A stretch of 64,000 bases of DNA from an uncultured Pseudomonadales bacterium (GCA_964386355.1 CAYLQQ010000003.1:5880-69879); one strand, 5' to 3'. Counted from the stretch's first letter, positions 10,378-32,332 are shown. The notes: a model not told the origin generated them from the sequence alone. Program-made: numbers and translations.

Positions 10378-10497
10378 TTCCGGTCTCGGCTTATTTTCAC
10401 AAAAGCTTGTGCTATCACTATCGTCAGCGCTGGAGCGTTTCAAGACTCTGTTCGGAATGGGAAGAGTTGGTACCACCCCGCTTCAGAAACCGGAACA
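10378..10497 (-). rRNA. rrf: 5S rRNA
   Basis: Reverse complement contains CCCATTCCGAACAGAGTCTTGAAACGCTCCAGCGCTGACGATAGTG, matching the 5S consensus CCCATGCCGAACTCAGAAGTGAAACGCCGTAGCGCCGATGGTAGTG. Helix I pairing between the termini (UGUUCCGGU / ACCGGAAC). Confidence 0.75.
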
Positions 10498-10998: not shown

Positions 10999-11823
10999 TT
11001 ATTGTTATTTCAAAAATTTGAAAGTAAGCTACTTTGGTGCTTACTCCTCACATCACTATGAGGGTCCGACCATATCTTTACCAATTTATATTGATATCTG
11101 ACGTATGGCCTGTGAGGATTCTAAGGTATATGATTTCACAATTTCGTTCTTTGAAAATTTACGTTTACCTGTATTCATCGCTAAACTTATATCTATAATT
11201 TGTTCAATTCCTGCTCTAGTTAAATGTTTTTTGACACTCACCAGATTAAGAACTTGTTCAAACTGTTCACAAGCTTTGCGCTTAATGATAAGTTTATCCT
11301 TTACAAAAGGTAAAACTTTGGTTTGTAAACTTTTCAAATCCCGAACTACAAATGCAAGTGATTTATCTGAAAAATAATCTTTCTTGTGGTTTAGTTTTAC
11401 ATAACCGCAGTCAAGCCGCTTCTGTAAATAATCTAATACCATTTTACCTTGAGGGTTCTGAGATACTTTAAAAAAATAAATAACTTGCCAACCTGTTTTA
11501 GTTTCTTTGGCTGGCACAATACTTACATAAAACATCCCTTCCCCTTCAATAAAACCTCTCAGATACTCATCACTTATCTGTAGACTCATATACTCTAGTC
11601 TTTCCTGCTGATTGTCTTGCTCGCATATCCGAAGCGAACCAGCATACATTTTTACTAGTATATAAAATATATACTAAGTAGTCTGCTGTTATCAAGATGT
11701 TCCAGCATATAGTCAGATTTATATCCCTAAATTCTAATATTTGGACAAAAAGAAAAAAATTAAACGAGACATCGATAGGGAGAGACAGTTCGAATGTCAC
11801 CACCAAATGTTAAAGGTGGTCAG
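10999..11823 (-). mobile_element. Group-I-type intron inserted in 23S rRNA domain V (near E. coli position ~2593) carrying a homing endonuclease ORF
   Basis: Exon sequence ...GUGAGACAG | insertion | (U)GUCGGUCUCUAUCC..., where E. coli has GAGACAGUUCGGUCCCUAUC. The insertion contains a LAGLIDADG ORF. Boundaries approximate to within +/-5 nt. Confidence 0.65.
11086..11649 (-). CDS. Single-motif LAGLIDADG homing endonuclease (I-CreI-like), intron-encoded
   Basis: 187 aa with the motif LRGFIEGEGMFYV (LAGLIDADG class). Located wholly inside the 23S insertion. Confidence 0.85.
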   Translation of the reverse strand: MYAGSLRICEQDNQQERLEYMSLQISDEYLRGFIEGEGMFYVSIVPAKETKTGWQVIYFFKVSQNPQGKMVLDYLQKRLDCGYVKLNHKKDYFSDKSLAFVVRDLKSLQTKVLPFVKDKLIIKRKACEQFEQVLNLVSVKKHLTRAGIEQIIDISLAMNTGKRKFSKNEIVKSYTLESSQAIRQISI

Positions 11824-15326: not shown

Positions 15327-15399
15327 TGGGTGACCATGGTTTCGAACCATGTACCTCAGTCTTATCAGGACTGCGCTCTACCAATTGAGCTAGTCACCC
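15327..15399 (-). tRNA. tRNA-Ile (anticodon GAU)
   Basis: RC = GGGTGACTAGCTCAATTGGTAGAGCGCAGTCCTGATAAGACTGAGGTACATGGTTCGAAACCATGGTCACCCA. Canonical cloverleaf, anticodon loop CTGATAA. Confidence 0.9.
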
Positions 15400-15785: not shown

Positions 15786-16388
15786 ATGCCATTTACCATT
15801 GACCCCCTTCCATACTCATCAGATGCACTAGAGCCCTTTATTGATAAAGAAACTATGCTCCTACATCACGACAAACACCACCAAACATATGCTGATAAAC
15901 TAAATTTAGCTTTGGAAAAATACCCTAAATTATATGAACAGTCACTGGAAAGTCTACTTTCTAATCTGGAAACGGTTCCAACTGATATCCGCACGTCTGT
16001 GAAAAACCATGGTGGTGGCGTTCACAACCACAACCTGTTTTGGAAGATGCTTGCACCAAAGCAGGAAGCAAGCGAAACAATCAAACAAGCTTTGTCTCAA
16101 TCATTTGGAAGTTTTGAGCAGTTTAAAGATCAGTTTGCCCAATCGGCTTTAAACCATTTTGGAAGCGGGTGGGCTTGGCTTGTCAAAGATACCGCTGGAA
16201 AACTTAAAATCTATTCACTTCCCAATCAAGACAGTCCTCTAAGCCAAGGTGATATACCCATTTTGGCTTTGGATGTCTGGGAACATGCCTACTATCTAAA
16301 ATATCAAAATAGAAGAGTTGAATATATCCAAACTTGGTGGAACGTAGTAAATTGGATTACTGTTGAGATAAGACTTAGGGAAGGATAA
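15786..16388 (+). CDS. sodA: Fe/Mn superoxide dismutase
   Basis: 200 aa. LPYSSDALEPFIDKETMLLHHDKHHQTY and DVWEHAYYLKYQNRR are signature SOD_Fe motifs. Lies between 16S and 23S on the opposite strand. Confidence 0.9.
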   Translation: MPFTIDPLPYSSDALEPFIDKETMLLHHDKHHQTYADKLNLALEKYPKLYEQSLESLLSNLETVPTDIRTSVKNHGGGVHNHNLFWKMLAPKQEASETIKQALSQSFGSFEQFKDQFAQSALNHFGSGWAWLVKDTAGKLKIYSLPNQDSPLSQGDIPILALDVWEHAYYLKYQNRRVEYIQTWWNVVNWITVEIRLREG

Positions 16389-16887: not shown

Positions 16888-18421
<1,534 letters not shown>

Positions 18422-21310: not shown

Positions 21311-22609
21311 CTAATAGTTCTCTACCCTACTCGGGTCAACCATAAAGTCCTGAAGATATTTTCGACCAATGAGAATTTCAGAACGCAAATGCTTTCGGTT
21401 TGAAATATTGGCCAAAGCCCGCACTTTTTGTCCTTGAATCCATAAATCTACCTCTATAACTGGACGGACTTCCTTTCCGAGAGCTGACTTGAATGTTTCC
21501 TCATATAAAATGTTTTTAGTACCCAAGAGCCCCAAATCCTCAGCTAATGTTCTATCAATGCTGACTGAGTAAGCTCCTGTATCCATCTTAGCAATAATCT
21601 CATGCTTGTTACTCTGCCCGTCCTTGATTATTATTTTTTCAAAAATGCCCACAATCTTTCTGCCTTTCTCAGTTTTAACTTTGTCTGAAAAATGTTCAGC
21701 AAAAAGCACTTGAGCTATTTGAATCCCTTTGTTGGGGTCTTGAATATCCAGTTCTTCAATGCGTTTAAGCCTAGCTAAAAGCCCCGCCTGATTAGCCATT
21801 TGGATCTGAAGTCCTGGTTGATCATTGAGCTCAATAACTAACGGACCTTTTTCTTCATCGATAACAATATCCACTCCTATATAGCCCAATTTTGTTGCTT
21901 GTTGACAAGCTACTGCAATCTTGAGTATCTGCTCCCAATACGGAATTACTAGGCCGTTTACTTTCTTACTTGTATTGGGAATATGGCTAATTATCGAGTC
22001 GTAATGTACTCCATGTGTTGTAATACCAGTAGCCATATCAATTCCGAGGGCTACCGCCCCTTGGTGAATATTTGCTTTACCATTACTCTCCTTGGTAGGT
22101 AAACGCAACATAGCCATAACCGGAACACTGTTAAAAACGATCACCCGAACATCGGGCGTGCCTTGGTAGGCATACTTTCGAAATTTGGGGTGTATTTTTA
22201 CCCGTTGTTCTATAAATGCTTGGTCAGGTGTTCTATTTCTTGAATATGAACCTTCGACTATATCCATAGCATGAAGTTGCAGATCTTCCTCATTCACTGT
22301 TCCCCCGTTCATTAGCAGCCACCTTCCTTCCTGTTCAGTTACCTTCTTAATTACCAGAATACCCTCACCCCCATACCCTTCACTAGGCTTAACAACAAAG
22401 CCTTCTTTTAATGCAATCCAGTTGAATGACCGTATATCACTATAGGAACGCAGCACTTTGATGAGCTTAGGATGAGGTATAGAGTTCCGTTTCAGGATTT
22501 TCTTAGTTAAAAGTTTAGAGTCCGCTATCTTACGAGCACTGTGGGAATTGAGTCCGAGATAGTTAAGATTTCGGGCATTCATGCCCAAAATATGATGCAG
22601 TTTGGCCAT
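21311..22609 (-). CDS. RimK-related ATP-grasp (alpha-L-glutamate ligase-like) fused to a C-terminal retropepsin-like/DUF785 'ATP-dependent zinc protease'-type domain
   Basis: N-terminal ATP-grasp motifs (VVKPSEGYGGEGILV, IELNDQPG). C-terminal IIAKMDTGAYSVSID...VRALANISNR resembles the retropepsin-like DUF785 domain. Confidence 0.6.
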   Translation of the reverse strand: MAKLHHILGMNARNLNYLGLNSHSARKIADSKLLTKKILKRNSIPHPKLIKVLRSYSDIRSFNWIALKEGFVVKPSEGYGGEGILVIKKVTEQEGRWLLMNGGTVNEEDLQLHAMDIVEGSYSRNRTPDQAFIEQRVKIHPKFRKYAYQGTPDVRVIVFNSVPVMAMLRLPTKESNGKANIHQGAVALGIDMATGITTHGVHYDSIISHIPNTSKKVNGLVIPYWEQILKIAVACQQATKLGYIGVDIVIDEEKGPLVIELNDQPGLQIQMANQAGLLARLKRIEELDIQDPNKGIQIAQVLFAEHFSDKVKTEKGRKIVGIFEKIIIKDGQSNKHEIIAKMDTGAYSVSIDRTLAEDLGLLGTKNILYEETFKSALGKEVRPVIEVDLWIQGQKVRALANISNRKHLRSEILIGRKYLQDFMVDPSRVENY

Positions 22610-22611
22610 AC

Positions 22612-23520
22612 TTATTTCAGTAGTTTTCTAAACCGCCATATTTCTAGAAGTCTCAATCCAGAATATTGCTCAATGAGCAATATCGATCCAAGAACAATAA
22701 CTATAAAAAGCTCGGGATTAACCAAAACAAACTTCTGAAGTATTTCTAAATTCATAATATAAAAACAAGCTATCGCTAGGATAAGAGTTTCTCCGGTAAT
22801 AATGAGCGCTTGAGTAAGATTTCGTGTAATCTGCAAATCTAAGAAATCCTCAACAAGTAATATAAGAATAAGGAGTGGAAAAATACCAATTGTAATCAGA
22901 GAGGTATTCCCTATAGCTGGTGATATTAATAGTATACTAAATATACTCAATGATACTAAAAGCATAAATAGAGCCATCCTTGGTAAATACTGAAATCGTA
23001 TTTTTTTGAGTAACATACGTACCATAGTAGCTACTGCAAGTATAAACGCAAATAACCCTATTCCTGTAACAAGTCCAGTCGCTAAAAATGCCACAGACAA
23101 TAGAGCTGGTGTAAATATTCCTGAGCTTTTGAGACCAATTATATGGCGAGCAAACACAACTACCGTTGCTACCAAAGGAAATAACATAATAAGTACTATT
23201 GTATTTGCTGGAACTCCCTGAGAGACAGCATACCGGATAGCATGTTGTACAACCGTAAACAAACTCATCTCTCCTACCGGATTCTGGTCGATATATCGTT
23301 CTAGTTTACCTTTTACCTCTGGTTTTGGTTCTGTGATATCAGGCTCCCGTTCAATGACTTTTCTGACAACTGGGCTGGCTGACTGGCTAGCTTCTGCAGA
23401 CTCTGAGGCCTCGATAGTTGACTGAGGACTAATGTTTGGCTCTTGTGCCCGAATACTCTGCCCAGGAAGCATGATTAGCGTGATTAATAATAGTAGTATT
23501 AAAGATATTTTTATATTCAT
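22612..23520 (-). CDS. Signal-peptide plus polytopic (about 7 TM) membrane protein, probable partner of the ATP-grasp/protease gene
   Basis: 302 aa with an N-terminal signal sequence, then an acidic/Ser-rich linker and seven hydrophobic helices. 2-nt gap to the downstream gene. Confidence 0.5.
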   Translation of the reverse strand: MNIKISLILLLLITLIMLPGQSIRAQEPNISPQSTIEASESAEASQSASPVVRKVIEREPDITEPKPEVKGKLERYIDQNPVGEMSLFTVVQHAIRYAVSQGVPANTIVLIMLFPLVATVVVFARHIIGLKSSGIFTPALLSVAFLATGLVTGIGLFAFILAVATMVRMLLKKIRFQYLPRMALFMLLVSLSIFSILLISPAIGNTSLITIGIFPLLILILLVEDFLDLQITRNLTQALIITGETLILAIACFYIMNLEILQKFVLVNPELFIVIVLGSILLIEQYSGLRLLEIWRFRKLLK

Positions 23521-25936
23521 ACCGTGTATTATACCATTATATACAATTTGTACTGATTTTGTTCAATTTACTAATAATACTTTTTTTACTCATTTTATTA
23601 TTGTTATATCCTTTTGTTATGTACTTTTATCATTTCTTTTTATTTAATATATATTTCCCCATGTTTTTATTCGTTTAAGTATATTTTAACTGTTTTGTAA
23701 GTTTTCCACATTATGTGGATCTTTTTATATTATTCTGTCATTCTGTTCTTGTTTTTGCTAGCTAACTTATTATTTGATTTGCTAGCATATGTTTATACTA
23801 TATATATTTTTTCACTACTTATGATTTTTGTTTCACCATATTACGTATTTACTGCAACTAATGCGTTACATTATTAGTTTTACTTGTGTCATTTATTCTG
23901 GTGACATTATACTCTGCTAATATTATTTATTCTTACTGGTGATGTTTTTAGTCACTGATTTAATATATTAGTCATCAGTTGCAATATACGTATCAATCAC
24001 TATATATAGATGAAGCTTCCAAATTATCAGTTTTAAGATCGCTGTAATACAAATAAGATGCTAAATTGAGATAAAGGACTTTTTAAAATGCTACAGATAT
24101 TACTTAATAAAATCCATGTGTCTAGAAATGAGTTATTACCGATGTTGAAATCTATAATAACAAGTCGTTGATTGAGAGAGCTGATTATTTATTAGGCCAT
24201 CACTATAAGTGGAACAATATTGAGCAGTGATTAACTGATGAAGGGTATATATCGTAGTGGTATCGGCTCTATACATGCACACACCAACTCTAAGTAGCTT
24301 AGACCATAAGTTATTAGTTTAACTCGTTTCTGTTATTACTATTTCTATATAGCTATATTAAGGATTACAATCTAGATGAAGCTCGGTATATGTAAATGTA
24401 TATTACACTTTTTATAAACCTAAGTTAAAATAGACATGATGCGTTTTAATTGGACATATTTTAACATTTACTCACTACTATCGACAATCACTGCACTGCT
24501 GACGAATATCTGCACTTTAACACTTATCAATCATGATTTGTAAATAAACAGAATTAACTTTATTCTAACTCCAATGTTTGATTTAAAACCATACATTTTC
24601 TAATAAAAAGTAATTTACTGTAATTTTTATAGCTATTATTATATGAGGTATAATCTTTCTGAGCTTCTACAAGGCATCCTATTGTACTAGCCACACATTT
24701 ATTCATTAAATTACATTATATTTAACCTACGCTGAGCTAGTATATATACTAACATTGGCTCTTTTTTTAGTAATTAATTACTTTTACTCTAATAACTAAA
24801 ATTATGCTCTAATATTTATAATTATTTTTATAATTTGTATTTTTCCGAATTATTCTGCGTTTAATGCATGCAATGTTTATATACCTTTCACATAACCGCT
24901 CTATATATTACTTATTACATTTTTTCTTTCCTATTTTTTACTTATATCTCATTTTTCATTAATATTGTTTATTTTTTATGTTCTTCTATTTGTTATCACT
25001 CTTTTTTCTTTACTGCTATTTTCGTTTGAATTTCATCTTTTTTTATATATATCTTTATTAGAATCTTTTACCGCATTCTTACTTTTTACTTATAATATTT
25101 ATTACTAATTTTCTCTAATTAAGTAATTTATTTTTTGCATATTATAATCTGATATTTGTTTTCAGTCTTTATATCTAATGTTATTGAAGTTTTATCTGTT
25201 AATTCTCTAATGATTTATTCTATCTACTACTACAGTTAGCTTCTATTTGATAATTTAGCAAACTTTATGTTTATTTGCTTATCCTTACCTATTCTATTTT
25301 TTACTTATATTATGGTATTTTTATATATTTATTACTTAATACTTATTACTTTATCTAATAAACGTTATTTATACAAATCATTTTTAATACTATTTTAGTT
25401 TTCTATTTATCTTAATAACAACTTTGTCTAAATATATTATTACTTTTACAAGTCTTTTTTGTATTTCCTAATCTGTTATTTTTATTCTCATACTATTTTA
25501 TTCTTTATTACTTCGTTTTATACCATAGTTAATAACAATAATATCCTATTCACTAGTTATATTACAGTTATATTTACTTATATTATTTGCCATATAATGT
25601 TTTTGTCCTTTAGTATTAATAACGCTATCATTATTAATATTATTTTATTTATTAAATATATAATTATATAACGCATAATTAATATATATTTAATTATTAT
25701 TTATACACTATAATGGTATTATATACATCAACAAAAATAGTTATAAGGGCAAAGAAAAATATTAGGTTAATAATACTAATATAATATACGAAGTATAAAC
25801 CGAATATGGTAATTAGAGGAAAAAGATTAAGTAATTATATATATATGTAACAATATATAACAACTAAAGTATTATTGACATCTCAACCTTCTAATCATAT
25901 ATTGTAATCGTATAATAACCTTACATATGTAAACTT
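23521..25936. other. 2.4-kb ORF-free, extremely AT-rich (roughly 80-85% A+T) intergenic block
   Basis: No ORF >60 aa apart from a low-complexity artefact at 25459-25671. Recurring TTATTACTT-like words. A palindrome ccacattatgtggat lies at 23707-23722. Confidence 0.8.
25875..25916 (+). promoter_or_regulatory. Sigma-70-like promoter for the giant gene: TTGACA-17nt-TATATT, plus a perfect TATAAT 8 nt further downstream
   Basis: ttgaca (25875-80), 17-nt spacer, tatatt (25898-903). tataat at 25911-16. ATG at 25937. Confidence 0.4.
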
Positions 25937-28900
25937 ATGCACACCGTGCAAGAACCTCAAGATACTAACCTACTATCAATTTCTCAAGCAGCACAATTCC
26001 TCGGAATATCCGAAGATACATTACGGAGATGGGATAAATTGGGTAAGCTAGTTCCAAACAGGACTCTTGGTAACTCTAGAAGGTATGAATTAAGTATCTT
26101 GCAACAAATTAAAGAAAGTAAAGATGGTTTCGAAACGCAAAATAACTATTTTCAAATAAGAAAAGAATTACAGAATATAAGAGATATATTACAGAATAAT
26201 AAGAAAAATGTAACTAAATTAAACCTAAGCAATCCTTCAGATACAGCGCTAATTAAGATACAAGCAAAGAATATAGAAGGATTACCTCAAACGATAGTTA
26301 TGGATAAGAAAGATACTAATCAAGTTACAAAACATAACATAATAAAACTTAATAGTATAAAAGATAACATTATTCATAAACTTACTTTACGAACAGGCAT
26401 AGATCTTATTGCAATAGCTTTATCCTTTGGGATAGTTATTCTTCTACTTATTTTAATATATACAGCTGTTACAAAAGGCTTACACAAAATTGAAAAGAAT
26501 CTAAGCAATGCTCAACAATTCAATCAAGACATTTTACTTGAACAAGATAGTTCGCAACCACTACTAGGAAGTGGACTGATTATTGGTGAAGATAAAGTAC
26601 TTATTGACGAACGTGGAAATATCCAACTTAGCGGAGCAGTATCCGGAGGTTATATCGATTCAGATAGTCGTAACTTTATAACAAATTCAGGCTTTGAGCA
26701 AAATGCATCAGGAAAGGCTTTATACTATATTTATGCTGAGGATGCCTCAGAAGCCAATACTTTTGTAACACAAGATTCTAGTTTAGATGGTCAAAATGCC
26801 CTTAAAGTAATTTTAGAACCAAATAACATGATCAAGATTCAACCCACATATGCTGACCTATTTCCAGGAAAAACCTATACTTTTTCACTCTATGTAAAAG
26901 GGTTGGGCACTACTGATGCAGATCTTACTGTCGGCTATGGAACTACCATGAGGAGTTATACAATAGCTGGTGACAGTTCGTGGCAACTAATTTCAGTCTC
27001 AAAACATTTTGAACCAGAAGAAAGTCCTACCCTTGATTCATTTAGTATTCTAATACAAAGTCGAGATGGTGTTGGCACTTTATATGTTGATAATATTCAG
27101 CTTGAAGGTGGTTCAACAGTCACTGCTTATAAACCTTCACATCTTACAACTGACGGAATCATCCATTTTTCTGCAGATGCCCTATTTCCTGCTGTAGCTG
27201 ACACAGTATCGATTGGTACAATAGTAAAACCATTTCAAGAAATAGTGGTAAATGAACAGATTATTAACAACTCATTGGAAGTATACGGTGACGCCACTAT
27301 AGATGGTAATCTAGTCGTTAGTGGTGACATTGAATTCCCTACTGTAATAGCCAAGGATAAGATTATTATCCAAACTGACGGTTTATATACTGGTAGTGGT
27401 ATCGGCACCAAGCGACTTGACAGTAACGGAAATCTACAAAATATTACTAGCCTGGGATTAGTCTATGGTACACTGACTTCTACAACTGATTATCTCACCT
27501 CTTCTGTCGGATTATCTGTTGGTGGGAATGCTTCATACTATTTTAATAAAAATGGCTATATAAAAGCTGCTCAGCTGAATTCATTGTCTGACATAAAAAT
27601 TGGTGATCCTAATGGAGAAACAGATAGTCTTGGAATATATTTTAGTGGTGTCAGTGGACACAGCAATGAGGCAGGCATGAGATTTAATACCAGTTCCGGC
27701 AAACTTGAGTATAGGGATGATAATAACACTAGCTGGACTACATTCGACAGCTTATCAGAGAGTAGCAGTACTACTGATTACAGTGCTAGCAATGGCTTGA
27801 CAATGGATGGAACAGATATCTTACTGGGCGGTAGCTTTACCCAGGACACTACTACCGTACTGGGAGCATATGACCTCATCTACAACCTGAATAGCACGGG
27901 TGATATAGAGATCCAGGACAATGGTTCTGCCCTGCTATACATCAGTGATACCGGCAATATCGGCATAGGCACCAATAGCCCTGCTGCCAAGCTGGATGTA
28001 GCGTCCTATGCCAACTTCGGCTCTTCCGTTAATATTGCCTCTACCCTGACCACAGTAGCCCTAAAAATAAGTGGTGGCGCTCATGATGGGTATGTCCTGA
28101 CTTCTGATGCTAACGGTAATACGGTTTGGGAAGCTGTTAGTTCGGGAGCTACGTATACGGCTGGAAATGGACTTACGCTGGCCTCCTCTACATTTACTCT
28201 TGGTGGAACATTAACGGAATCTACCGCCATCAACCAAGATAGTTTTGGGTTTACATTAGAAAACCCGGGAACTGCAGATACGATAATTAACTTAGGCTCT
28301 GAGGGTGACCTGCTTATACAGGACAACGGGACCACTTTTGCTACTTTTGCTGATAACGGTTCGTTTACTTTGGAAAATATTACCTTTGATAATACTCAGC
28401 TAACCGCGGCTGGTGACTTAGGTCTTGGACTCTATGACAATGCTAGCAATGGTATTTTTGTTAAAGATGGAGGTAACGTTGGTATTGGCACCACAACTCC
28501 CGGATCTCAACTGACAGTCAATGGCGTAGGATCCTTTACCCTTGGCACTGTTGCCTTGCCTGGAATCACCTTTGGCACTGACACCAATACTGGTATGTGG
28601 TCGTCAGACCCTGATACGGTCAACTTATCTACAAATGGATTAGAAAGGTTAAGAGTTGATAGTAATGGGAATGTAGGAATTGGAACCACAAGCCCGACAG
28701 AGAATCTACATGTGATTGGAAATGCTATCTTTCCTCAGGGCAGCATTGGGGTTGGTGCTCATTGGACCGCTAAAGACCCTTCCGGTAGATCATTACTATA
28801 TATTAGAGATGATACTGATCAACCTAAGTTAGTAGTCGAACAAGATAATATAAATAATAGTGCGGCTATTTTTTACGGACAAGGTACATCAAACGACGTG

Positions 28901-31900
28901 AGCATTGCTGAGTTTTGGGGTAATAATGGTTCAACTTATGGTTTGTATGTTCAAAATTCTGGAAATGTTGGAATTGGCGACAACAGTCCGGCTGCACTCT
29001 TCAGCGTTGGTTTTGGTGACTTGTTTACCATCAATAATCTAGGAAACCTCAATGGAATATCCGGGAATTTCTCTGGTTCATTGACTATAGGTGAAAACTT
29101 TTCTGCTACTTCCGGCTCCTATACTTTGGATAACATAACTTTCGATGATGCGCAGATCACTGCAGCTGGTGATCTAGGATTGGGGATATATGATAATTCT
29201 GGAAATGGTTTAACTATTGGTGATGGTGGAAATATTGGTATTGGCACCACCTCTCCCTTTCAAAAAATGCACCTAGTAAATGGAAGTATGCTGATAGATT
29301 CACCCAATCCTAGTCTAGTAGGTAACTTTATTACAGGCGGAAGTGCTTTTGGTGTGTATGTGTCGGGTAAGTATGCATATGTAGCAGACTATACTGAAGG
29401 ATTGAAGATAATGGATATAAGTAACCCGAATTCCCCGGTATTAGTATCATCCTATGATACTAATGCTCTTACAACAGAAGTTGTTGTTGCTGGGAAGTAT
29501 GCTTACCTTGCAGATGGATTAACTGGCGGGGTAAAAATAGTAGATGTAAGTAATCCAAAATCTCCAACACTTATAGGCACATATAACCCTGTTGATAGTG
29601 GTGGTATTAAAAATATATATCTTACTGGTAAATACATATATGCAACAGATTGGTTTTTAGGTTTACTTATAATTGATGTTAGCAACCCGGCCTCACCAAT
29701 ACTTGTAGGTTCATATGCTTCTATGGATGCCCACGGTGTGTATGTGTCGGGTAAATATGCATATGTAGCAAACGGTTTAGATGGTTTGCAAGTGATTGAT
29801 GTAAGCAACCCTACCTCCCCTTCTTTAGCTGGTACGTATGACACTAGTGGGGATGCTTTGGGTGTGTATGTGTCGGGTAAATATGCATATGTAGCAAACG
29901 GTTTAGATGGTTTGCAAGTGATTGATGTAAGCAACCCTACCTCCCCTTCTTTAGCTGGTACGTATGACACTAGTGGGGATGCGTTGGGTGTGTATGTGTC
30001 GGGTAAATATGCATATATAGCAGATGGTTCGTATGGGTTGCAGGTGATTGATGTAAGCAACCCGGCTACACCTTCCTTAGCTGGTATGTATAGAACTATT
30101 CATAATGCCATGAAGATTTATGTGTCGGGTAAATATGCATATGTTGGCAATGCATTAAGTGGTTTGCAGGTTATCGATGTGGGGGGAGCTGATATTCATG
30201 CATTAAATGCTGGGAATGTTGAAACGAATAGTATTACAATTACTGATAATGGGGACATTGGTAATAACTTATACATAAGAAATGGAATCAATGTTGGTAC
30301 AGGCGGATTATTTACTGATGGTCTAATTTCTTCAGCAGGTTCAGGTATTAACTACTTTGCAGGCAACGTTGGAATCGGCGTTTTAGCACCGGCTGAGAAA
30401 ATGGAGGTAGCTGGTAATATTCGAGTCACAGGTGGCTCTTTTATCGATGACGGTACTACACTAGCTGTTCCTGATTACGTTTTTGAAAGCGATTATAACC
30501 TGATGAACCTAACCGACCTTGGATCCTACATAGAATTGAATAAGCATCTGCCGGGCGTACCTGACATGAACGATACCAAGGGCTGGGCAGCGCTTTCATT
30601 GCAGGACAGGGATATGAAGCTTCTGGAAAAAATCGAAGAGAATATTATATATACCCTTGAGCTAAACTCAAAACTCGCTGATACCAGATTGGAGCTAAGC
30701 AATTCTAACCATGCAACCATGTATCCCTCCAACCAGGAGTTTCTCTCAAGTTCCGGGGATCTCTTTATCCAGTCCCAGATATACGACGGAATCCTCGGGG
30801 AAGCTACACCTGACACTCTTGCAAACCTCACCTCAACCGTTACAGATAGCTTAGGTAATGCCAAAGTGGCTGTAGCGGGTTTTGGCAGCGTATTTAGTGC
30901 CAAACTAACAGTCGGCATAGCTGATATCAAAAACCTGATTACTGATACCGTGGTAGTCAGGCAGGTAAAAGTTGAAGACAAGCTCCTTTCCCCCGTTGTT
31001 GAAGCAAGCCAGATCCTGACTGACCAGCTCTACACTCAAAATCTGACAGCTGTGGATGCTTCCATTTCTGGCACCTTATCAGCTAGACAAGCTGTGTTTG
31101 GTGATCCAGCAATGAAACAATCCAGCAATGAAACAATTGCTGTTCAGATTCTCGGTGATGCCTCAGTGTCTGGAACTCTCAAGACAAAAGATGCCAGTGT
31201 CAGTGGAGAGCTCTTTGCCAACTCAGCCCGCATCAGGACACTTATAGCTGAAAGGATCAAAGCTGATTCCATTGAAGGTTTGGAAGCCAGGATTGAAAAT
31301 ATAGTCAATTCCTCTATGTCAGCCCAAATGATGGAGTTGTATACACTAAACACCCCATACCCCTCTCCCGTTGCAGTTACCAACAACTTACCCTCCCTTC
31401 CCTCTGACTGGGAGCAGAGCCTAAACAATCTCATGACTAGGCTCGACAATGTGGAGTCAGCCACTAGCTCTGCTACCTGGCAAGCCAACTCAAACCTGGC
31501 TTACGACTCCCAAATCATAGCGGGTACAGTGGATACGGATTTGGCTACGGTCAATACTTTCCTGGCAGTTCTAGGAAATGCTTCTATGGTCAATGCTGAA
31601 GTGACCAATAGCCTCAGTGTCCAAACTGACCTGAATCTTACTAGAAATTCTATAGCTACCCTTTCCGATACTCTCTACATCCAGCCCACCGGCCTAGGTA
31701 AGATAGATATCCTAGCCGGTGCTATATCTGTAGAAAGTAATGGAAATCTATATGTTAACGGAGACCTATACTTAAAGGGGTCTTTATATGCTTATAGGTT
31801 ATTTTCTGATACATTAGAAACGAAAACCGCCACTGTATCCGGAACCTTATTTACAAACTTAATCAAACCAAAAGACACTACAATAGCCATAGATCTTAGC

Positions 31901-32332
31901 TCTGTTAACCAAAACCTTAAAGCATCAGAGTCTGCCCTGCTCAGTTCCAAATTTCAGGTTCTAAATTCAGGTTCCGAAGTAGCTTCGATAGATGCCAGCG
32001 GTTCAGCCAGGTTTAAAGCGGTTACTGCATCTAAATTATATTTACCATATACCTATGATACTTTAGATAACCCTATAGATAGCTCTATATCAGCTGATGA
32101 GCTAAACAATACTGCCGATTCTATCGGGATTGGAACTATCAAAGCAGGACAAACAAGCATCTTTATGCAGGCTCCCATTGTGACCAAAGAGTCGCTCATG
32201 TTTGTAACTCCCACTACTACAACAAACATTCCCTTAGCTGTTACCGCTAAAGAGGTTGGCAAAGGGTTTATTGTTTCTATCACCAAACCCCAAACCACCA
32301 ACATAAACTTCAACTGGTGGATAATAAACTAA
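25937..32332 (+). CDS. Giant (2131 aa) membrane-anchored surface protein with an N-terminal cytoplasmic HTH fused to a single TM helix and a huge ectodomain
   Basis: Residues ~12-60 (LLSISQAAQFLGISEDTLRRWDKLGKLVPNRTLGNSRRYELSIL) match the HTH_17 excisionase/MerR-type consensus. TM helix LIAIALSFGIVILLLILIYTAV at ~155-178. CBM4/9-like jelly-roll domain (NFITNSGFEQNASGKALYY...). Tail-fibre-like beta-helical repeats (GNVGIGTTTP). LVIVD-type beta-propeller repeats (YAYVA..GLQVIDVSNP). Tail-fibre chaperone (Peptidase_S74)-like segment DYVFESDYNLMNLTDLGSYIELNKHLPGV. Confidence 0.85.
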   Translation: MHTVQEPQDTNLLSISQAAQFLGISEDTLRRWDKLGKLVPNRTLGNSRRYELSILQQIKESKDGFETQNNYFQIRKELQNIRDILQNNKKNVTKLNLSNPSDTALIKIQAKNIEGLPQTIVMDKKDTNQVTKHNIIKLNSIKDNIIHKLTLRTGIDLIAIALSFGIVILLLILIYTAVTKGLHKIEKNLSNAQQFNQDILLEQDSSQPLLGSGLIIGEDKVLIDERGNIQLSGAVSGGYIDSDSRNFITNSGFEQNASGKALYYIYAEDASEANTFVTQDSSLDGQNALKVILEPNNMIKIQPTYADLFPGKTYTFSLYVKGLGTTDADLTVGYGTTMRSYTIAGDSSWQLISVSKHFEPEESPTLDSFSILIQSRDGVGTLYVDNIQLEGGSTVTAYKPSHLTTDGIIHFSADALFPAVADTVSIGTIVKPFQEIVVNEQIINNSLEVYGDATIDGNLVVSGDIEFPTVIAKDKIIIQTDGLYTGSGIGTKRLDSNGNLQNITSLGLVYGTLTSTTDYLTSSVGLSVGGNASYYFNKNGYIKAAQLNSLSDIKIGDPNGETDSLGIYFSGVSGHSNEAGMRFNTSSGKLEYRDDNNTSWTTFDSLSESSSTTDYSASNGLTMDGTDILLGGSFTQDTTTVLGAYDLIYNLNSTGDIEIQDNGSALLYISDTGNIGIGTNSPAAKLDVASYANFGSSVNIASTLTTVALKISGGAHDGYVLTSDANGNTVWEAVSSGATYTAGNGLTLASSTFTLGGTLTESTAINQDSFGFTLENPGTADTIINLGSEGDLLIQDNGTTFATFADNGSFTLENITFDNTQLTAAGDLGLGLYDNASNGIFVKDGGNVGIGTTTPGSQLTVNGVGSFTLGTVALPGITFGTDTNTGMWSSDPDTVNLSTNGLERLRVDSNGNVGIGTTSPTENLHVIGNAIFPQGSIGVGAHWTAKDPSGRSLLYIRDDTDQPKLVVEQDNINNSAAIFYGQGTSNDVSIAEFWGNNGSTYGLYVQNSGNVGIGDNSPAALFSVGFGDLFTINNLGNLNGISGNFSGSLTIGENFSATSGSYTLDNITFDDAQITAAGDLGLGIYDNSGNGLTIGDGGNIGIGTTSPFQKMHLVNGSMLIDSPNPSLVGNFITGGSAFGVYVSGKYAYVADYTEGLKIMDISNPNSPVLVSSYDTNALTTEVVVAGKYAYLADGLTGGVKIVDVSNPKSPTLIGTYNPVDSGGIKNIYLTGKYIYATDWFLGLLIIDVSNPASPILVGSYASMDAHGVYVSGKYAYVANGLDGLQVIDVSNPTSPSLAGTYDTSGDALGVYVSGKYAYVANGLDGLQVIDVSNPTSPSLAGTYDTSGDALGVYVSGKYAYIADGSYGLQVIDVSNPATPSLAGMYRTIHNAMKIYVSGKYAYVGNALSGLQVIDVGGADIHALNAGNVETNSITITDNGDIGNNLYIRNGINVGTGGLFTDGLISSAGSGINYFAGNVGIGVLAPAEKMEVAGNIRVTGGSFIDDGTTLAVPDYVFESDYNLMNLTDLGSYIELNKHLPGVPDMNDTKGWAALSLQDRDMKLLEKIEENIIYTLELNSKLADTRLELSNSNHATMYPSNQEFLSSSGDLFIQSQIYDGILGEATPDTLANLTSTVTDSLGNAKVAVAGFGSVFSAKLTVGIADIKNLITDTVVVRQVKVEDKLLSPVVEASQILTDQLYTQNLTAVDASISGTLSARQAVFGDPAMKQSSNETIAVQILGDASVSGTLKTKDASVSGELFANSARIRTLIAERIKADSIEGLEARIENIVNSSMSAQMMELYTLNTPYPSPVAVTNNLPSLPSDWEQSLNNLMTRLDNVESATSSATWQANSNLAYDSQIIAGTVDTDLATVNTFLAVLGNASMVNAEVTNSLSVQTDLNLTRNSIATLSDTLYIQPTGLGKIDILAGAISVESNGNLYVNGDLYLKGSLYAYRLFSDTLETKTATVSGTLFTNLIKPKDTTIAIDLSSVNQNLKASESALLSSKFQVLNSGSEVASIDASGSARFKAVTASKLYLPYTYDTLDNPIDSSISADELNNTADSIGIGTIKAGQTSIFMQAPIVTKESLMFVTPTTTTNIPLAVTAKEVGKGFIVSITKPQTTNINFNWWIIN
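29735..30112 (+). repeat. Tandem 126-bp (42-aa) repeats inside the giant gene, two copies differing by 1 nt
   Basis: Copies start at 29735, 29861 and 29987 (ggtgtgtatgtgtcgggtaaatatgcatat...). Copies 1 and 2 differ only at gctttg/gcgttg. Further diverged copies lie at ~29347 and ~30118. Confidence 0.85.

What the first reader, a model, noticed from the sequence alone, without database searches (positions are those of the whole stretch)
25937..32332. Giant surface protein whose cytoplasmic N-terminus is an excisionase/MerR-type HTH DNA-binding domain
One uninterrupted 2131-codon ORF carries, in order:
- an HTH_17-like domain (residues ~12-60)
- a single TM helix (~155-178)
- a ~1950-aa ectodomain: a CBM4/9-like sugar-binding jelly roll, phage-tail-fibre-like GNVGIGTTSP repeats, an LVIVD beta-propeller, and a tail-fibre chaperone-like DYVF...NKHLPGVP segment

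Membrane-tethered one-component regulators (ToxR, CadC) have small sensor domains. Here a DNA-binding domain is physically coupled to what looks like a host- or glycan-binding adhesin, like those episymbiotic CPR bacteria are proposed to use for attachment. This would let surface binding, or cleavage of the ectodomain at the autoproteolytic chaperone-like module, signal directly to DNA. DNA-binding activity of the N-terminal domain is inferred only. The 2.4-kb AT-rich tract immediately upstream is an obvious candidate binding target.
Basis: partly seen in the sequence, partly recalled or inferred. Interest (0 to 1): 0.8.

Follow-up and report, generated by a model that had tools for sequence, protein, structure and literature searches.

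The report
Surface fibre with cytoplasmic DNA-binding head
A real 2131-residue gene of an ultra-small (CPR/Patescibacteria) bacterium joins a BldC/MerR-type DNA-binding domain inside the cell, through one membrane helix, to a phage-tail-fibre-like surface fibre, and it belongs to a large, apparently undescribed family built the same way that could link host contact directly to DNA.

Summary
The ORF at 25937-32332 is intact and matches an NCBI protein exactly. Syntenic orthologues from independent assemblies keep the same N-terminus, so this is not a frameshift or assembly join.

- **Cytoplasmic head:** residues 12-61 pass Pfam MerR and match DNA-bound BldC (profile E 4e-8, 1.6 Å). BldC's backbone-contact, base-reading Arg and wing Arg residues are kept.
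- **Membrane anchor:** there is one TM helix (155-178). Charge distribution favours N-in.
- **Ectodomain:** it resembles a trimeric tail fibre. It has repeats shared with Bdellovibrio MAT fibres, a seven-blade LVIVD propeller, a weak CBM-like module and a tailspike-type C-terminal domain.

**Not supported:** the "autoproteolytic chaperone" module. It has no S74 profile hit and no SDxxxK motif, and it lies about 1300 residues outside the membrane.

**New finding:** this is a large family. In an exhaustive search, 92 of the 155 best representatives have one or two N-terminal HTHs followed by one TM. Their ectodomains range from under 300 to about 5000 residues and include collagen, S74 and lectin-like modules. 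Named records are mostly Microgenomates-group Patescibacteria.

**Likely function:** probably membrane-tethered DNA binding coupled to a surface fibre. Whether it signals or simply tethers DNA is untested. The upstream 2.4-kb AT-rich tract is conserved in length in orthologues and remains unexplained.

The parts
23521..25936 (.). Gene-less AT-rich tract (GC 0.23) between the divergent 7TM_transglut/ATP-grasp operon and the giant gene. Its role is unknown.
   Evidence: Composition. No ORF of 90 aa or more. No Rfam hit. No conserved coding potential. Orthologous loci L068, L069 and L070 have equivalent tracts of 2.27-2.32 kb at GC 0.19-0.22, with only patchy sequence similarity.
25875..25903 (+). 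Sigma-70-type promoter candidate: TTGACA, 17-nt spacer, TATATT, about 34 nt upstream of the ATG.
   Evidence: Best match in the region, 11 of 12 positions. A TTGAC-type -35 element sits at the same distance in the orthologous upstream regions. This is a consensus match only.
25937..32332 (+). Giant ORF of 2131 codons plus stop.
   Evidence: Identical to NCBI protein P0001; orthologues P0002-P0004.
25970..26119 (+). Cytoplasmic winged helix-turn-helix (residues 12-61), MerR superfamily, BldC/TnrA-like.
   Evidence: Pfam MerR 39.6 bits, above the 28.2 cut-off. Orthologue profile vs PDB: BldC 6ama E 4e-8, TnrA E 2e-6. AlphaFold2 pLDDT above 80 for residues 11-60. Foldseek: BldC-DNA at 1.6 Å, plus RacA, GlnR, CarH and Xis.
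26120..26398 (+). Cytoplasmic linker (residues 62-154): a helix continuing from the HTH to about residue 90, then a K/N-rich segment predicted to be disordered.
   Evidence: AlphaFold2 predicts a helix at 52-90 (pLDDT 58-71) and pLDDT below 50 for 89-139. Residues 1-154 have net charge +8.
26399..26470 (+). Single transmembrane helix (residues 155-178), a type II (N-in) anchor.
   Evidence: Hydropathy analysis. Family-wide positive-inside bias, p = 1e-4.
26672..27136 (+). Membrane-proximal CBM_4_9-like jelly-roll candidate (residues 246-400).
   Evidence: Pfam 20.7 bits, below the 25.9 cut-off. Four-orthologue profile hits GH10-associated CBM 4mgq at E 3e-4. Weak evidence.
27254..29296 (+). 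Tail-fibre/MAT-type fibre region (residues 440-1120) with GN(V/I)GIGTxxP repeats.
   Evidence: PDB 8ond (Bd2133) E 2e-9 and 8ojn E 2e-4. PHROG tail-fibre families at E 1e-13 and 4e-12. Motif positions.
29309..30346 (+). Seven LVIVD repeats (residues 1125-1470), presumed to form a beta-propeller. Repeats 4 and 5 are identical.
   Evidence: Pfam LVIVD 266.8 bits, 7 stretches. 126-nt tandem repeat at 29735-30144. Repeat units.
30362..30736 (+). Last fibre repeat plus the PDYVF...NKHLPGVP...LLEKIEE segment (residues 1476-1600). It occupies the position where relatives carry Peptidase_S74 but has no catalytic motif.
   Evidence: Only the fibre repeat hits PDB (Bd2133); no S74 structure is hit. No Pfam S74 hit. 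Relatives carry SDSRLK or SDIRIK where the window and its orthologues have ESDYNLM, EENYKLM and DSNYQIL. The AlphaFold2 model was too poor to use.
30737..32071 (+). Distal stalk (residues 1601-2045) of unassigned fold, Ser/Thr-rich and repetitive.
   Evidence: Local similarity to the pre-C-terminal region of relatives.
32072..32329 (+). Conserved C-terminal domain ending FNWWIIN (residues 2046-2131), of tailspike/K1-lyase_C/H-lectin type.
   Evidence: Of 26 aligned members, 13 hit Pfam K1-lyase_C (best E 3e-8) and 3 hit H_lectin; the window's own copy is below threshold. The family profile hits the C-terminus of cyanophage tailspike 7eea at E 1e-3.

Best explanation
The gene encodes a type II membrane protein of a Microgenomates-group Patescibacterium.

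**Outside the cell (homology shown; trimer and adhesion inferred).** About 1950 residues form a phage-tail-fibre-like fibre, most likely trimeric. It comprises MAT/tail-fibre repeats, an LVIVD propeller, a non-catalytic segment where relatives have an S74 chaperone, a stalk, and a tailspike-type C-terminal domain. It plausibly binds a host-cell or glycan surface.

**Inside the cell (fold and conserved contact residues shown; DNA binding inferred).** Each chain ends in a BldC/TnrA-like MerR-superfamily winged HTH on a flexible, basic linker of about 90 residues.

**Proposed mechanism (inferred).** BldC-type heads bind DNA only as cooperative head-to-tail multimers. Trimerisation of the fibre, and clustering of fibres at a contact site, would hold three or more heads together under the membrane (six per trimer in relatives with tandem HTHs). 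That would set their occupancy on repeat-containing, probably AT-rich, DNA. The fibre's assembly or engagement state would thus be read out at the chromosome from the membrane, without release, as in ToxR/CadC-type transmembrane regulators.

The protein is one member of a large family sharing the layout: one or two HTHs, one TM, a variable fibre, and a conserved C-terminal domain.
For: **The fusion is real.**
- It is identical to an NCBI protein, and orthologues at 47-56% identity from other assemblies keep the HTH-linker-TM fusion.
- Synteny is conserved: MnmA, DeoC, ATP-grasp, 7TM_transglut, AT-rich tract, giant gene.

**The HTH looks DNA-binding.**
- Pfam MerR is above the gathering cut-off. 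The profile hits BldC at E 4e-8. All top Foldseek hits are DNA-binding MerR-type wHTHs, with BldC at 1.6 Å and 36-38% identity.
- BldC's DNA-contact residues are T27, T29, R30, W31, K33, R47 and R48, plus the dimer-interface residue G44 (PMC5859096). They correspond to window T28, R30, R31, W32, K34, R48, R49 and G45. R31, W32, G45, R48 and R49 are invariant among the orthologues.
- Across 337 HTH copies from 151 family proteins, backbone-contact positions are conserved (T 93%, R 89%, W 87%, wing R 92%). Base-reading positions vary (R 68% / N 18%; D/K/S/E). This is the pattern expected for DNA binders with diversified specificity.
- The HTH core is about 79% identical between the window protein and P0003, against about 49% overall.
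- Most relatives carry two tandem HTHs.

**Topology.**
- One TM; basic N-terminal part; acidic remainder.
- Across the family the N-flank has more K+R than the C-flank (Wilcoxon p = 1e-4), and the N-terminal part is net positive in 95 of 99 proteins.

**Fibre.**
- Homology to the crystallised trimeric Bd2133/MAT fibres (PMC10769870) and to PHROG tail fibres.
- Relatives carry collagen triple helix and S74 trimerisation chaperones.

**Family size.**
- 12,653 representatives at E ≤ 1e-3. Of the 155 analysed, 48 have HTH(s) + 1 TM + an ectodomain of at least 300 aa (total length up to 5310 aa), and 44 have HTH + TM with a shorter remainder.
- Free-standing HTH-TM proteins of about 100 aa also exist. 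The HTH-TM unit therefore occurs as a module on its own.
Against: - No experiment or DNA motif links the HTH to any target.
- I found no conserved operator in the orthologous promoter regions.
- No signalling, SEA-like or protease-site domain was identified between the TM and the fibre. The juxtamembrane model has low confidence.
- Two BldC base or minor-groove positions are changed (K26 to D27, H46 to S47).
- A trimer is an odd partner for a domain family that usually works as dimers or head-to-tail arrays.
- The trimeric state, adhesion and clustering are all inferred by homology.
- TM calls rest on hydropathy only.
- The conservation statistics come from the best hits to a profile that already contains those residues, so they are biased upward.
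- HTH-TM proteins with no ectodomain argue that no extracellular input is needed for whatever the head does.
Confidence: 0.4

Rival explanations
1. **Static tether or anchor.** The HTH binds nucleoid DNA with low specificity, perhaps favouring AT-rich DNA. It acts like RacA, physically tying chromosome and envelope together, or serving as a cytoplasmic 'knot' that stops a fibre under load from being pulled out of the membrane. No information is transmitted.
For: - RacA, a MerR-like chromosome-anchoring protein, is among the structural matches.
- BldC-type wings read narrow AT-rich minor grooves (PMC5859096), and the genome is AT-rich.
- HTH-TM mini-proteins without any ectodomain exist.
- The same head is attached to very different ectodomains, as expected for a generic anchor.
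- No signalling domain was found.
Against: - Base-reading positions vary among family members, which suggests sequence-specific readers rather than one generic binder.
- A single TM with a small folded head is a weak mechanical anchor.
- Nothing shows nucleoid association.
Confidence: 0.25
2. **Notch/RsgI-like release.** Load on the fibre, or shedding of it, exposes the stub to a site-2 protease. The HTH is freed from the membrane and then acts as a soluble BldC-like regulator.
For: - RsgI anti-sigma factors provide a bacterial precedent. They have a cytoplasmic regulatory head, one TM, an autoproteolytic SEAL domain, CBM-type sensors, and proposed force-dependent release (PMC10556640).
- MYRF shows that an S74 domain can release a DNA-binding domain (PMC3742443).
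- Some relatives have genuine S74 domains.
Against: - The window protein has no S74 motif.
- In relatives the S74 domain is extracellular and far from the membrane, so it would shed only the distal module.
- No SEAL-like juxtamembrane domain was detected (low confidence).
- I did not look for a site-2 protease in the window.
Confidence: 0.1
3. **The HTH is not a DNA binder here.** It is a protein-interaction or assembly module: it docks a cytoskeletal, secretion or assembly partner, as RodZ's HTH binds MreB, or it simply fixes N-in topology.
For: - RodZ has the same gross layout of a cytoplasmic HTH, one TM and an outside domain. HTH_25-type proteins are the second most common class in the transmembrane-regulator survey.
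- A second, unrelated HTH class (transposase-type) is fused to giant membrane glycosyltransferases in related loci. HTH heads may therefore serve a general envelope-protein role in these bacteria.
Against: - The residues that contact DNA in BldC are precisely the conserved ones, including the wing arginines and the YpG-reading Arg.
- All structural neighbours are DNA-bound proteins.
- Tandem duplication is typical of DNA readers.
Confidence: 0.15
4. **Artefact.** An independent small HTH gene is joined to the fibre gene by a frameshift, sequencing error or mis-assembly.
For: Exact look-ups of the encoding contig returned nothing, so read-level support could not be inspected.
Against: - The same continuous fusion occurs in at least six other assemblies (P0002, P0003, P0004, P0009, L001, L002) and in dozens of more distant family members.
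- The HTH-to-TM linker is in frame and alignable among the orthologues.
Confidence: 0.02

Closest known systems
Transmembrane transcription regulators (ToxR, TcpP, CadC; survey by Demey et al. 2023, PMC10269533)
   Same: Both have a cytoplasmic N-terminal DNA-binding domain, a flexible linker, a single TM and an extracytoplasmic domain in one polypeptide. They are proposed to act on DNA from the membrane. The survey lists MerR (386), MerR_1 (350) and HTH_17 (151) among 50,302 such proteins.
   Different: ToxR and CadC use an OmpR-type winged helix and small periplasmic sensor domains. Here the head is BldC/MerR-type, usually duplicated in relatives, and the outside part is a fibre of 300 to about 5000 residues. 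The terms Patescibacteria, collagen and LVIVD do not occur in that paper's text or held supplements.
BldC (Streptomyces; PDB 6ama, 6amk)
   Same: It is the best sequence and structure match to residues 12-60 (E 4e-8; 1.6 Å; 36-38% identity). The topology is the same (alpha1-alpha2-hairpin-alpha3), and most DNA-contact residues plus the G44 interface glycine are conserved.
   Different: BldC is a free 68-residue cytoplasmic protein. The window domain is the head of a 2131-residue membrane protein and is followed by a longer helix. K26 and H46 equivalents differ.
RacA (B. subtilis chromosome-anchoring protein; PDB 5i44)
   Same: It has a MerR-like wHTH whose job is to tie DNA to the cell envelope rather than regulate through an effector domain. 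It is a structural match at 2.7 Å.
   Different: RacA is soluble and reaches the membrane through DivIVA. It has no TM and no ectodomain. Sequence similarity is weak (E 0.02).
Bdellovibrio MAT (mosaic adhesive trimer) fibres and phage tail fibres (PMC10769870; PDB 8ond, 8ojn)
   Same: They share GNxGIGTxxPxxKLxV beta-helix fibre repeats. Both come in S74 and non-S74 versions with swappable tip domains, and both are surface fibres of a bacterium that lives on other bacteria.
   Different: [quoted passage not shown] This family instead starts with HTH(s) and a TM anchor, and it has a conserved FDWW-type C-terminal domain.
RsgI anti-sigma factors (PMC10556640, PMC10328401)
   Same: They have a cytoplasmic transcription-controlling head, one TM, and a long extracytoplasmic part ending in carbohydrate-binding modules. 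Signalling is proposed to be force-dependent.
   Different: The RsgI head binds a sigma factor, not DNA. Signalling needs a juxtamembrane autoproteolytic SEAL domain and a site-2 protease, and neither was found here.
MYRF (PMC3742443)
   Same: It is a membrane-bound transcription factor that combines a DNA-binding domain with a phage tailspike-derived S74 trimerisation and cleavage domain.
   Different: In MYRF the order is DBD, then S74, then TM, all on the cytoplasmic side, so cleavage frees the DBD. Here the order is DBD, TM, fibre, then the S74-position segment outside the cell, and the catalytic motif is absent in the window protein.
RodZ
   Same: It has an N-terminal cytoplasmic HTH, a single TM and an extracytoplasmic domain. 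(Layout stated from general knowledge; HTH_25/DUF4115 entries appear.)
   Different: RodZ uses an XRE-type HTH that binds MreB, and it has a small conserved periplasmic domain. There is no homology to the MerR-type head or to the fibre.

Membership tests
MerR superfamily winged HTH (Pfam PF00376 / PF13411) | N-terminal HTH matches the family profile above the curated cut-off | tested here: met
   MerR 39.6 bits vs 28.2; MerR_1 25.1 vs 21.6. All top structural neighbours are MerR-type wHTHs.
Classical MerR regulators (MerR, CueR, SoxR, BmrR) | Long antiparallel coiled-coil dimerisation helix followed by a C-terminal effector-binding domain | tested here: not met
   No effector domain is present. 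After the wHTH come a helix (52-90, pLDDT 58-71), a disordered linker and a TM. NCBIfam equivalogs for MerR, SoxR and CueR-type regulators score far below their cut-offs.
BldC family | Minimal MerR-like wHTH with BldC's DNA-contact and head-to-tail interface residues | tested here: met
   Profile E 4e-8 to 6ama. T28, R30, R31, W32, K34, G45, R48 and R49 align with BldC T27, T29, R30, W31, K33, G44, R47 and R48. NCBIfam HTH_BldC scores only 20.7-26.3 bits against a 77-bit cut-off, so this is BldC-like rather than a BldC orthologue.
BldC family | Small free-standing protein that binds direct repeats as cooperative head-to-tail multimers | not testable with these tools
   The domain is part of a 2131-aa membrane protein. 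DNA binding cannot be assayed here.
Excisionase / HTH_17 (PF12728, TIGR01764) | Profile match above the cut-off | tested here: inconclusive
   HTH_17 scores 26.2 bits (cut-off 27) on the whole protein but 32.2 bits on residues 1-100. TIGR01764 scores 16.7-22.5 bits against 28.8. No recombinase gene is nearby.
Transmembrane transcription regulators (one-component, ToxR/CadC-like) | DNA-binding domain and at least one TM in the same polypeptide, with the DBD cytoplasmic | tested here: met
   HTH at 12-61 and one TM at 155-178. N-in is supported by charge bias. This is the operational definition used in PMC10269533.
Transmembrane transcription regulators (one-component, ToxR/CadC-like) | Binds promoter DNA and changes transcription in response to an extracytoplasmic signal | not testable with these tools
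   No target motif was found. Experiments are required.
MAT / phage tail-fibre-like trimeric fibres | Beta-helix fibre repeats homologous to solved MAT or tail-fibre structures | tested here: met
   8ond at E 2e-9 and 8ojn at E 2e-4. The repeat aligns three times within Bd2133. PHROG tail-fibre families hit at E 1e-13 and 4e-12.
MAT / phage tail-fibre-like trimeric fibres | Signal peptide followed by the conserved ~130-aa beta-rich N-terminal domain of MAT proteins | tested here: not met
   The N-terminus is an HTH, a linker and a TM. PDB matches to MAT chains cover only the fibre repeats. MAT features are taken from PMC10769870.
Peptidase_S74 intramolecular chaperone (autoproteolytic) | Profile match and the catalytic SDxxxK Ser-Lys motif | tested here: not met
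   No PF13884 hit even at E ≤ 1. The profile of residues 1476-1600 hits no S74 structure. The sequences are ESDYNLM, EENYKLM and DSNYQIL where relatives have SDSRLK or SDIRIK. The structure model was unusable (pLDDT 45.8).
LVIVD repeat proteins (PF08309) | Multiple LVIVD repeats above the cut-off | tested here: met
   Seven repeats, 266.8 bits against a 20.2-bit cut-off.
CBM_4_9 carbohydrate-binding module (PF02018) | Profile match above the cut-off | tested here: inconclusive
   20.7 bits against 25.9. The orthologue profile hits 4mgq at E 3e-4. Sugar binding was not tested.

The most novel reading that the evidence does not exclude
Patescibacteria may possess a phylum-wide class of 'fibre-tethered DNA readers'. 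These would be trimeric, phage-tail-fibre-derived host-binding fibres whose cytoplasmic ends are BldC-like HTHs, one or two per chain. Engagement or clustering of the fibres on a host cell would then be converted directly into cooperative DNA binding. That could provide the currently unknown switch between free or swarmer and host-attached states, without two-component systems or sigma/anti-sigma pairs.
Probability: 0.25. Interest if true: 0.85.

Novelty: new variant of a known kind. Interest (0 to 1): 0.7.

Why it matters
Patescibacteria make up a large share of bacterial diversity and live attached to other microbes. A 2024 perspective states that how they regulate the switch between unattached and host-attached states is completely unknown (PMC11665869).

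This gene, and the family uncovered around it, puts a DNA-binding head with intact DNA-contact residues on the inner end of the kind of surface fibre that predatory bacteria and phages use to recognise cells. If the head does bind DNA, it would be the shortest possible path from host contact to the chromosome. It is directly testable, because Saccharibacteria-labelled loci also contain family members (L021, 2492 aa) and cultivable, genetically tractable Saccharibacteria exist.

Even if the head is only a tether, it would reveal a nucleoid-envelope link peculiar to ultra-small cells. It also extends the catalogue of transmembrane transcription regulators to giant fibrous ectodomains, and it identifies a reusable HTH-TM module together with a conserved C-terminal domain.

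Tried and rejected
**Searches and models that gave nothing**
- Exact look-ups of the window protein and of P0001 in the contig index returned nothing. Read or contig support for this exact gene could not be inspected.
- A word-index homology search with residues 1-200 alone found nothing, not even the protein itself. This is a tool limitation. The exhaustive profile search replaced it.
- The last word-index search, using a tandem-HTH alignment, returned mostly short fragments and added only taxon names.
- The AlphaFold2 model of the S74-position segment (residues 1476-1595) had mean pLDDT 45.8, so I ran no fold search on it.
- The C-terminal domain profile of four sequences had no PDB hit. A 26-sequence profile was needed.

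**The AT-rich tract**
- No significant repeat family or tandem array.
- No Rfam match, even at E ≤ 1.
- No ORFs conserved between orthologous tracts.
- Promoter-like matches are not enriched over shuffles: 31 found vs 24.5 ± 5.2 expected.
- A replication origin is unlikely, because cumulative GC skew keeps falling across the window and rises only within the giant + strand gene. A hairpin at 23705-23719 resembles two imperfect DnaA boxes (TCCACATTATGTGGA). This resemblance is my reading, not a tool result.
- No conserved operator emerged from aligning five orthologous promoter regions.

**Other ideas rejected**
- Prophage or mobile-element origin of the gene: the neighbours are housekeeping genes in conserved synteny.
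- A second HTH of this type in the window: none was found.

**Literature**
- Searches for this architecture in Patescibacteria found no description.

Full report
**1. What is in the sequence**

The ORF at 25937-32332 (+) is uninterrupted and encodes 2131 residues. The window is a chromosomal stretch of a CPR-type bacterium with about 40% GC. It contains an rRNA operon and housekeeping genes.

The neighbours of the giant gene are:
- MnmA, DeoC, an ATP-grasp protein and a 7TM_transglut protein on one side.
- Thioredoxin reductase, thioredoxin, UMP kinase and Lgt on the other.

A protein 100% identical to the ORF exists at NCBI on a 134-kb contig (P0001). The closest named relative is a partial protein from Candidatus Beckwithbacteria (P0004, 47% identity).

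**2. The fusion is real**

P0002 (1576 aa), P0003 (1744 aa), P0004 (1351 aa, partial) and the more distant P0009 (1261 aa, with a collagen-repeat ectodomain) all begin with the same HTH, a linker and one hydrophobic helix. The loci encoding P0002 and P0003 share the gene order MnmA, DeoC, ATP-grasp, 7TM_transglut, gap, giant gene.

**3. The cytoplasmic head**

- Pfam MerR matches residues 14-50 at 39.6 bits (cut-off 28.2). MerR_1 also passes. HTH_17 is borderline.
- NCBIfam gives only sub-threshold similarity to HspR, BldC, IS607 transposase, TnrA and excisionase models.
- A profile of five orthologous N-termini hits BldC (6ama) at E 4e-8 and TnrA at E 2e-6 in the PDB.
- An AlphaFold2 model has pLDDT above 80 for residues 11-60. 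Its order is strand, helix 15-22, helix 26-35, hairpin 42-51, and then a helix running to about residue 90. Residues 89-139 are predicted to be disordered, and a long helix covers the TM.
- Every top Foldseek match is a DNA-binding MerR-type winged HTH: BldC (1.6 Å over 45-47 residues, 36-38% identity), RacA, GlnR/TnrA, CarH, phage Xis, BmrR and MtaN.

The BldC-DNA structures name the contacts (PMC5859096):
- T27, T29, K33 and W31 contact phosphates.
- R30 (a YpG contact) and K26 contact bases.
- H46, R47 and R48 lie in the AT-rich minor groove.
- G44 lies at the head-to-tail interface.

By the HMMER alignment, the corresponding window residues are T28, R30, K34, W32, R31, D27, S47, R48, R49 and G45. 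Eight of ten positions are basic, identical or conservative. R31, W32, G45, R48 and R49 are invariant in the orthologues.

Across 337 HTH copies from 151 family proteins, backbone-contact positions are strongly conserved. The base-reading positions vary. The hit list is selected by a profile that already contains those residues, which biases these figures upward.

Classical MerR features are absent: there is no effector domain and no confident coiled coil. The head is best described as BldC/TnrA-like.

**4. Membrane anchor and topology**

Only one segment is strongly hydrophobic, at about residues 155-178. Residues 1-154 carry net charge +8, and everything after the TM is net acidic. In 99 family proteins the N-flank of the TM has more Lys+Arg than the C-flank (2.9 vs 2.2, Wilcoxon p = 1e-4). 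The part before the TM is net positive in 95 of 99. There is no N-terminal signal peptide, and a folded 150-residue domain precedes the helix. N-in/C-out is therefore the consistent topology. It is inferred, because no dedicated topology predictor was available.

**5. The ectodomain**

| Region (residues) | Assignment | Evidence |
|---|---|---|
| 246-400 | CBM_4_9-like module, weak | Pfam below cut-off; orthologue profile vs 4mgq E 3e-4 |
| 440-1120 | GN(V/I)GIGT fibre repeats | Bd2133 and other Bdellovibrio MAT fibres; PHROG tail-fibre families |
| 1125-1470 | Seven LVIVD repeats | Pfam 266.8 bits; two repeats identical |
| 1476-1600 | Last fibre repeat, then PDYVF...NKHLPGVP...LLEKIEE segment | |
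| 1601-2045 | Ser/Thr-rich stalk | |
| 2046-2131 | Conserved C-terminal domain ending FNWWIIN | |

- By position the idea is reasonable. In relatives P0045, P0023 and L008 a genuine Peptidase_S74 domain with SDSRLK or SDIRIK follows the last fibre repeat.
- The window protein and its orthologues have no S74 profile or structure hit and no Ser-Lys motif.
- My structure model of the segment was too poor to use.
- Self-cleavage here is therefore unsupported. In any case it would occur about 1300 residues outside the membrane.

The C-terminal domain recurs in 52 of the sequences retrieved. Of 26 aligned copies, 13 hit Pfam K1-lyase_C (a phage tailspike C-terminal domain) and 3 hit H_lectin. The profile also hits the C-terminus of a cyanophage tailspike. 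The window's own copy is below threshold but aligns with the family.

**6. It is a family, not a singleton**

A scan of one genome per species with the N-terminal alignment returned 67 loci. In many records labelled Patescibacteria, the matched ORF has the HTH at its start, one TM about 90-300 residues in, and a very long remainder. Examples:
- L004, Daviesbacteria, at least 1946 aa.
- L019, Gottesmanbacteria, at least 1264 aa.
- L021, Saccharibacteria, 2492 aa.
- L018, WWE3, at least 727 aa.
- L026, 1276 aa; L008, 2063 aa; L012, at least 3393 aa.

Pfam shows that most carry two tandem MerR HTHs. Their ectodomains are diverse: collagen, Peptidase_S74, Kelch, H-lectin.

An exhaustive profile search of 1.84 billion representatives found 12,653 proteins at E ≤ 1e-3 and 1193 at E ≤ 1e-10. 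The classification below covers 151 of the 155 sequences in the set:

| Class | Count |
|---|---|
| HTH(s) + one TM + at least 300 residues beyond | 48 (total length up to 5310 aa) |
| HTH + TM with a shorter remainder | 44 |
| No TM (many are fragments) | 49 |
| Other | 10 |

Free-standing proteins of about 100 residues, with just the HTH and a C-terminal TM, also exist.

Source names attached to hits are 'MerR family transcriptional regulator', 'excisionase family DNA binding protein' or 'hypothetical'. The named taxa are mostly Microgenomates-group CPR. Several loci are labelled 'uncultured Gammaproteobacteria' or 'Pseudomonadales'. I could not verify those labels.

**7. Mechanism**

*Shown:*
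- The architecture.
- The fold class of the head and conservation of its DNA-contact residues.
- Homology of the fibre to solved trimeric fibres.
- The breadth of the family.

*Inferred:* DNA binding, the trimeric state, adhesion, and any coupling between the two ends.

*Preferred model (confidence 0.4).* BldC-type heads bind DNA only as cooperative head-to-tail arrays; G44E abolishes binding. A trimeric fibre would hold three heads together on flexible basic linkers of about 90 residues, or six in the tandem-HTH relatives. Fibre assembly, or clustering at a contact site, would then set DNA occupancy from the membrane, as proposed for ToxR/CadC-type regulators.

*Rivals:*
- A RacA-like static DNA-envelope tether or anchor (0.25).
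- An HTH used for protein contacts, as in RodZ (0.15).
- Notch/RsgI-like proteolytic release (0.10).
- Artefact (0.02).

The ectodomain-less mini-proteins, and the use of one head on many different fibres, favour a generic role. The variable base-reading residues favour specific DNA reading. I cannot decide between these computationally.

**8. The AT-rich tract**

The tract 23521-25936 has GC 0.23. It contains no ORF of 90 aa or more, no Rfam match, no notable repeats and no coding potential conserved across orthologous loci.

The orthologous loci have an equivalent gene-less tract of nearly the same length (2270, 2317 and 2301 nt) and composition (GC 0.19-0.22), but with only short patches of sequence similarity. 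Contigs L001 and L002 end inside the equivalent AT-rich DNA.

More distant family members have ordinary short upstream gaps. The tract is therefore a feature of this orthologue group, not of the family.

The best promoter candidate (TTGACA, 17 nt, TATATT at 25875-25903) lies at the tract's 3' edge, and its position is conserved.

In a streamlined genome, a length-conserved 2.3-kb non-coding tract is itself unexplained.

**9. Comparison with what is known**

As a class, DBD-plus-TM proteins are known and common. MerR-type examples have been counted (PMC10269533). Tail-fibre-like surface fibres of a bacterium that attacks bacteria are known from Bdellovibrio (PMC10769870). A DBD combined with a tailspike S74 domain is known from MYRF. 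Force-sensitive single-pass regulators with carbohydrate-binding ectodomains are known from RsgI.

I found no description of the following in the searchable literature:
- The combination of a BldC-like head, usually duplicated, on a giant phage-fibre-like ectodomain with a conserved tailspike-type C-terminus.
- Its wide distribution in Patescibacteria.

The absence of a paper in that library is not proof of novelty. I rate the finding as a new variant of a known kind.

**10. Verdict**

- The HTH, the topology and the adhesin-like fibre are supported.
- The autoproteolytic switch is not supported.
- DNA binding, signalling and the AT-tract target remain open.

Interest is 0.7.

Noticed in passing
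window 23521-25936; L068 7341-9610; L069 6815-9131; L070 7700-10000: A gene-less AT-rich tract of 2.3-2.4 kb (GC 0.19-0.23) lies upstream of the giant gene. Its length and composition are conserved across orthologous loci, but its sequence is barely conserved. It has no Rfam hit and no conserved ORFs. Contigs L001 and L002 end inside the equivalent tract. This is unusual for a streamlined CPR genome and remains unexplained.
   Followed up: partly
window 15786-16388 (+), between 16S rRNA (16894-18421, -) and tRNA-Ile (15327-15399, -): An Fe/Mn superoxide dismutase gene sits inside the rRNA operon on the opposite strand. In addition, the 5S gene (10378-10494) lies 1.2 kb beyond the 23S end (11727), with a 187-aa ORF (11086-11649, -) in between.
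   Followed up: no
window 29735-30144: A 126-nt tandem repeat (3.3 copies, 89% matches) makes LVIVD repeats 4 and 5 identical at protein level (residues 1270-1311 equal 1312-1353). This reflects either a very recent duplication or repeat collapse or expansion during assembly.
   Followed up: no
L027 4314-9494 and 12803-17719; L035 5446-9636; L047 5086-8538 and 14130-18626 (all - strand): Giant (1150-1726 aa) multi-TM proteins in Patescibacteria loci begin with transposase-like HTH sequence. Pfam run on two of them (L027 4314-9494; L047 14130-18626) found family-2 glycosyltransferase domains in both and transposase-type HTHs (HTH_Tnp_1/HTH_28) in the L047 one. Four of the five end in a 'PEN / hydrophobic / RKRK' tail resembling a sorting signal. 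This may be a second, unrelated class of HTH fused to envelope proteins in these bacteria.
   Followed up: partly
L007 4049-4354; L011 1129-1467; L027 9980-10282; L035 9971-10273; L047 8789-9127; L006 9995-10294: These loci encode tail-anchored proteins of about 100 aa, consisting only of the MerR-type HTH and a C-terminal TM. In five of the six loci, a conserved 450-560-aa membrane protein (M[YF]P.QTS.IP...YPYWYLG) is encoded adjacent or within about 3 kb; the one copy scanned (L027) had no Pfam hit.
   Followed up: partly
window 21311-23520 (-): An operon encodes a 7TM_transglut protein and an ATP-grasp protein (RimK-like, with a RimB-like protease tail). It diverges from the giant gene across the AT-rich tract, and this arrangement is kept in all the orthologous loci examined.
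   Followed up: no
window 23705-23719: A perfect 6-bp hairpin, TCCACATTATGTGGA, is followed by a T-run. The scan flagged it as terminator-like. Its arms resemble imperfect DnaA boxes, but the GC skew shows no origin-like switch here.
   Followed up: no
P0012 (623 aa), P0014 (1015 aa), P0015 (1511 aa): Some representatives contain 8-10 copies of this HTH in one polypeptide. By hydropathy, P0014 and P0015 have no TM and P0012 has only one weak late segment. This is a different, highly iterated architecture built from the same domain.
   Followed up: no
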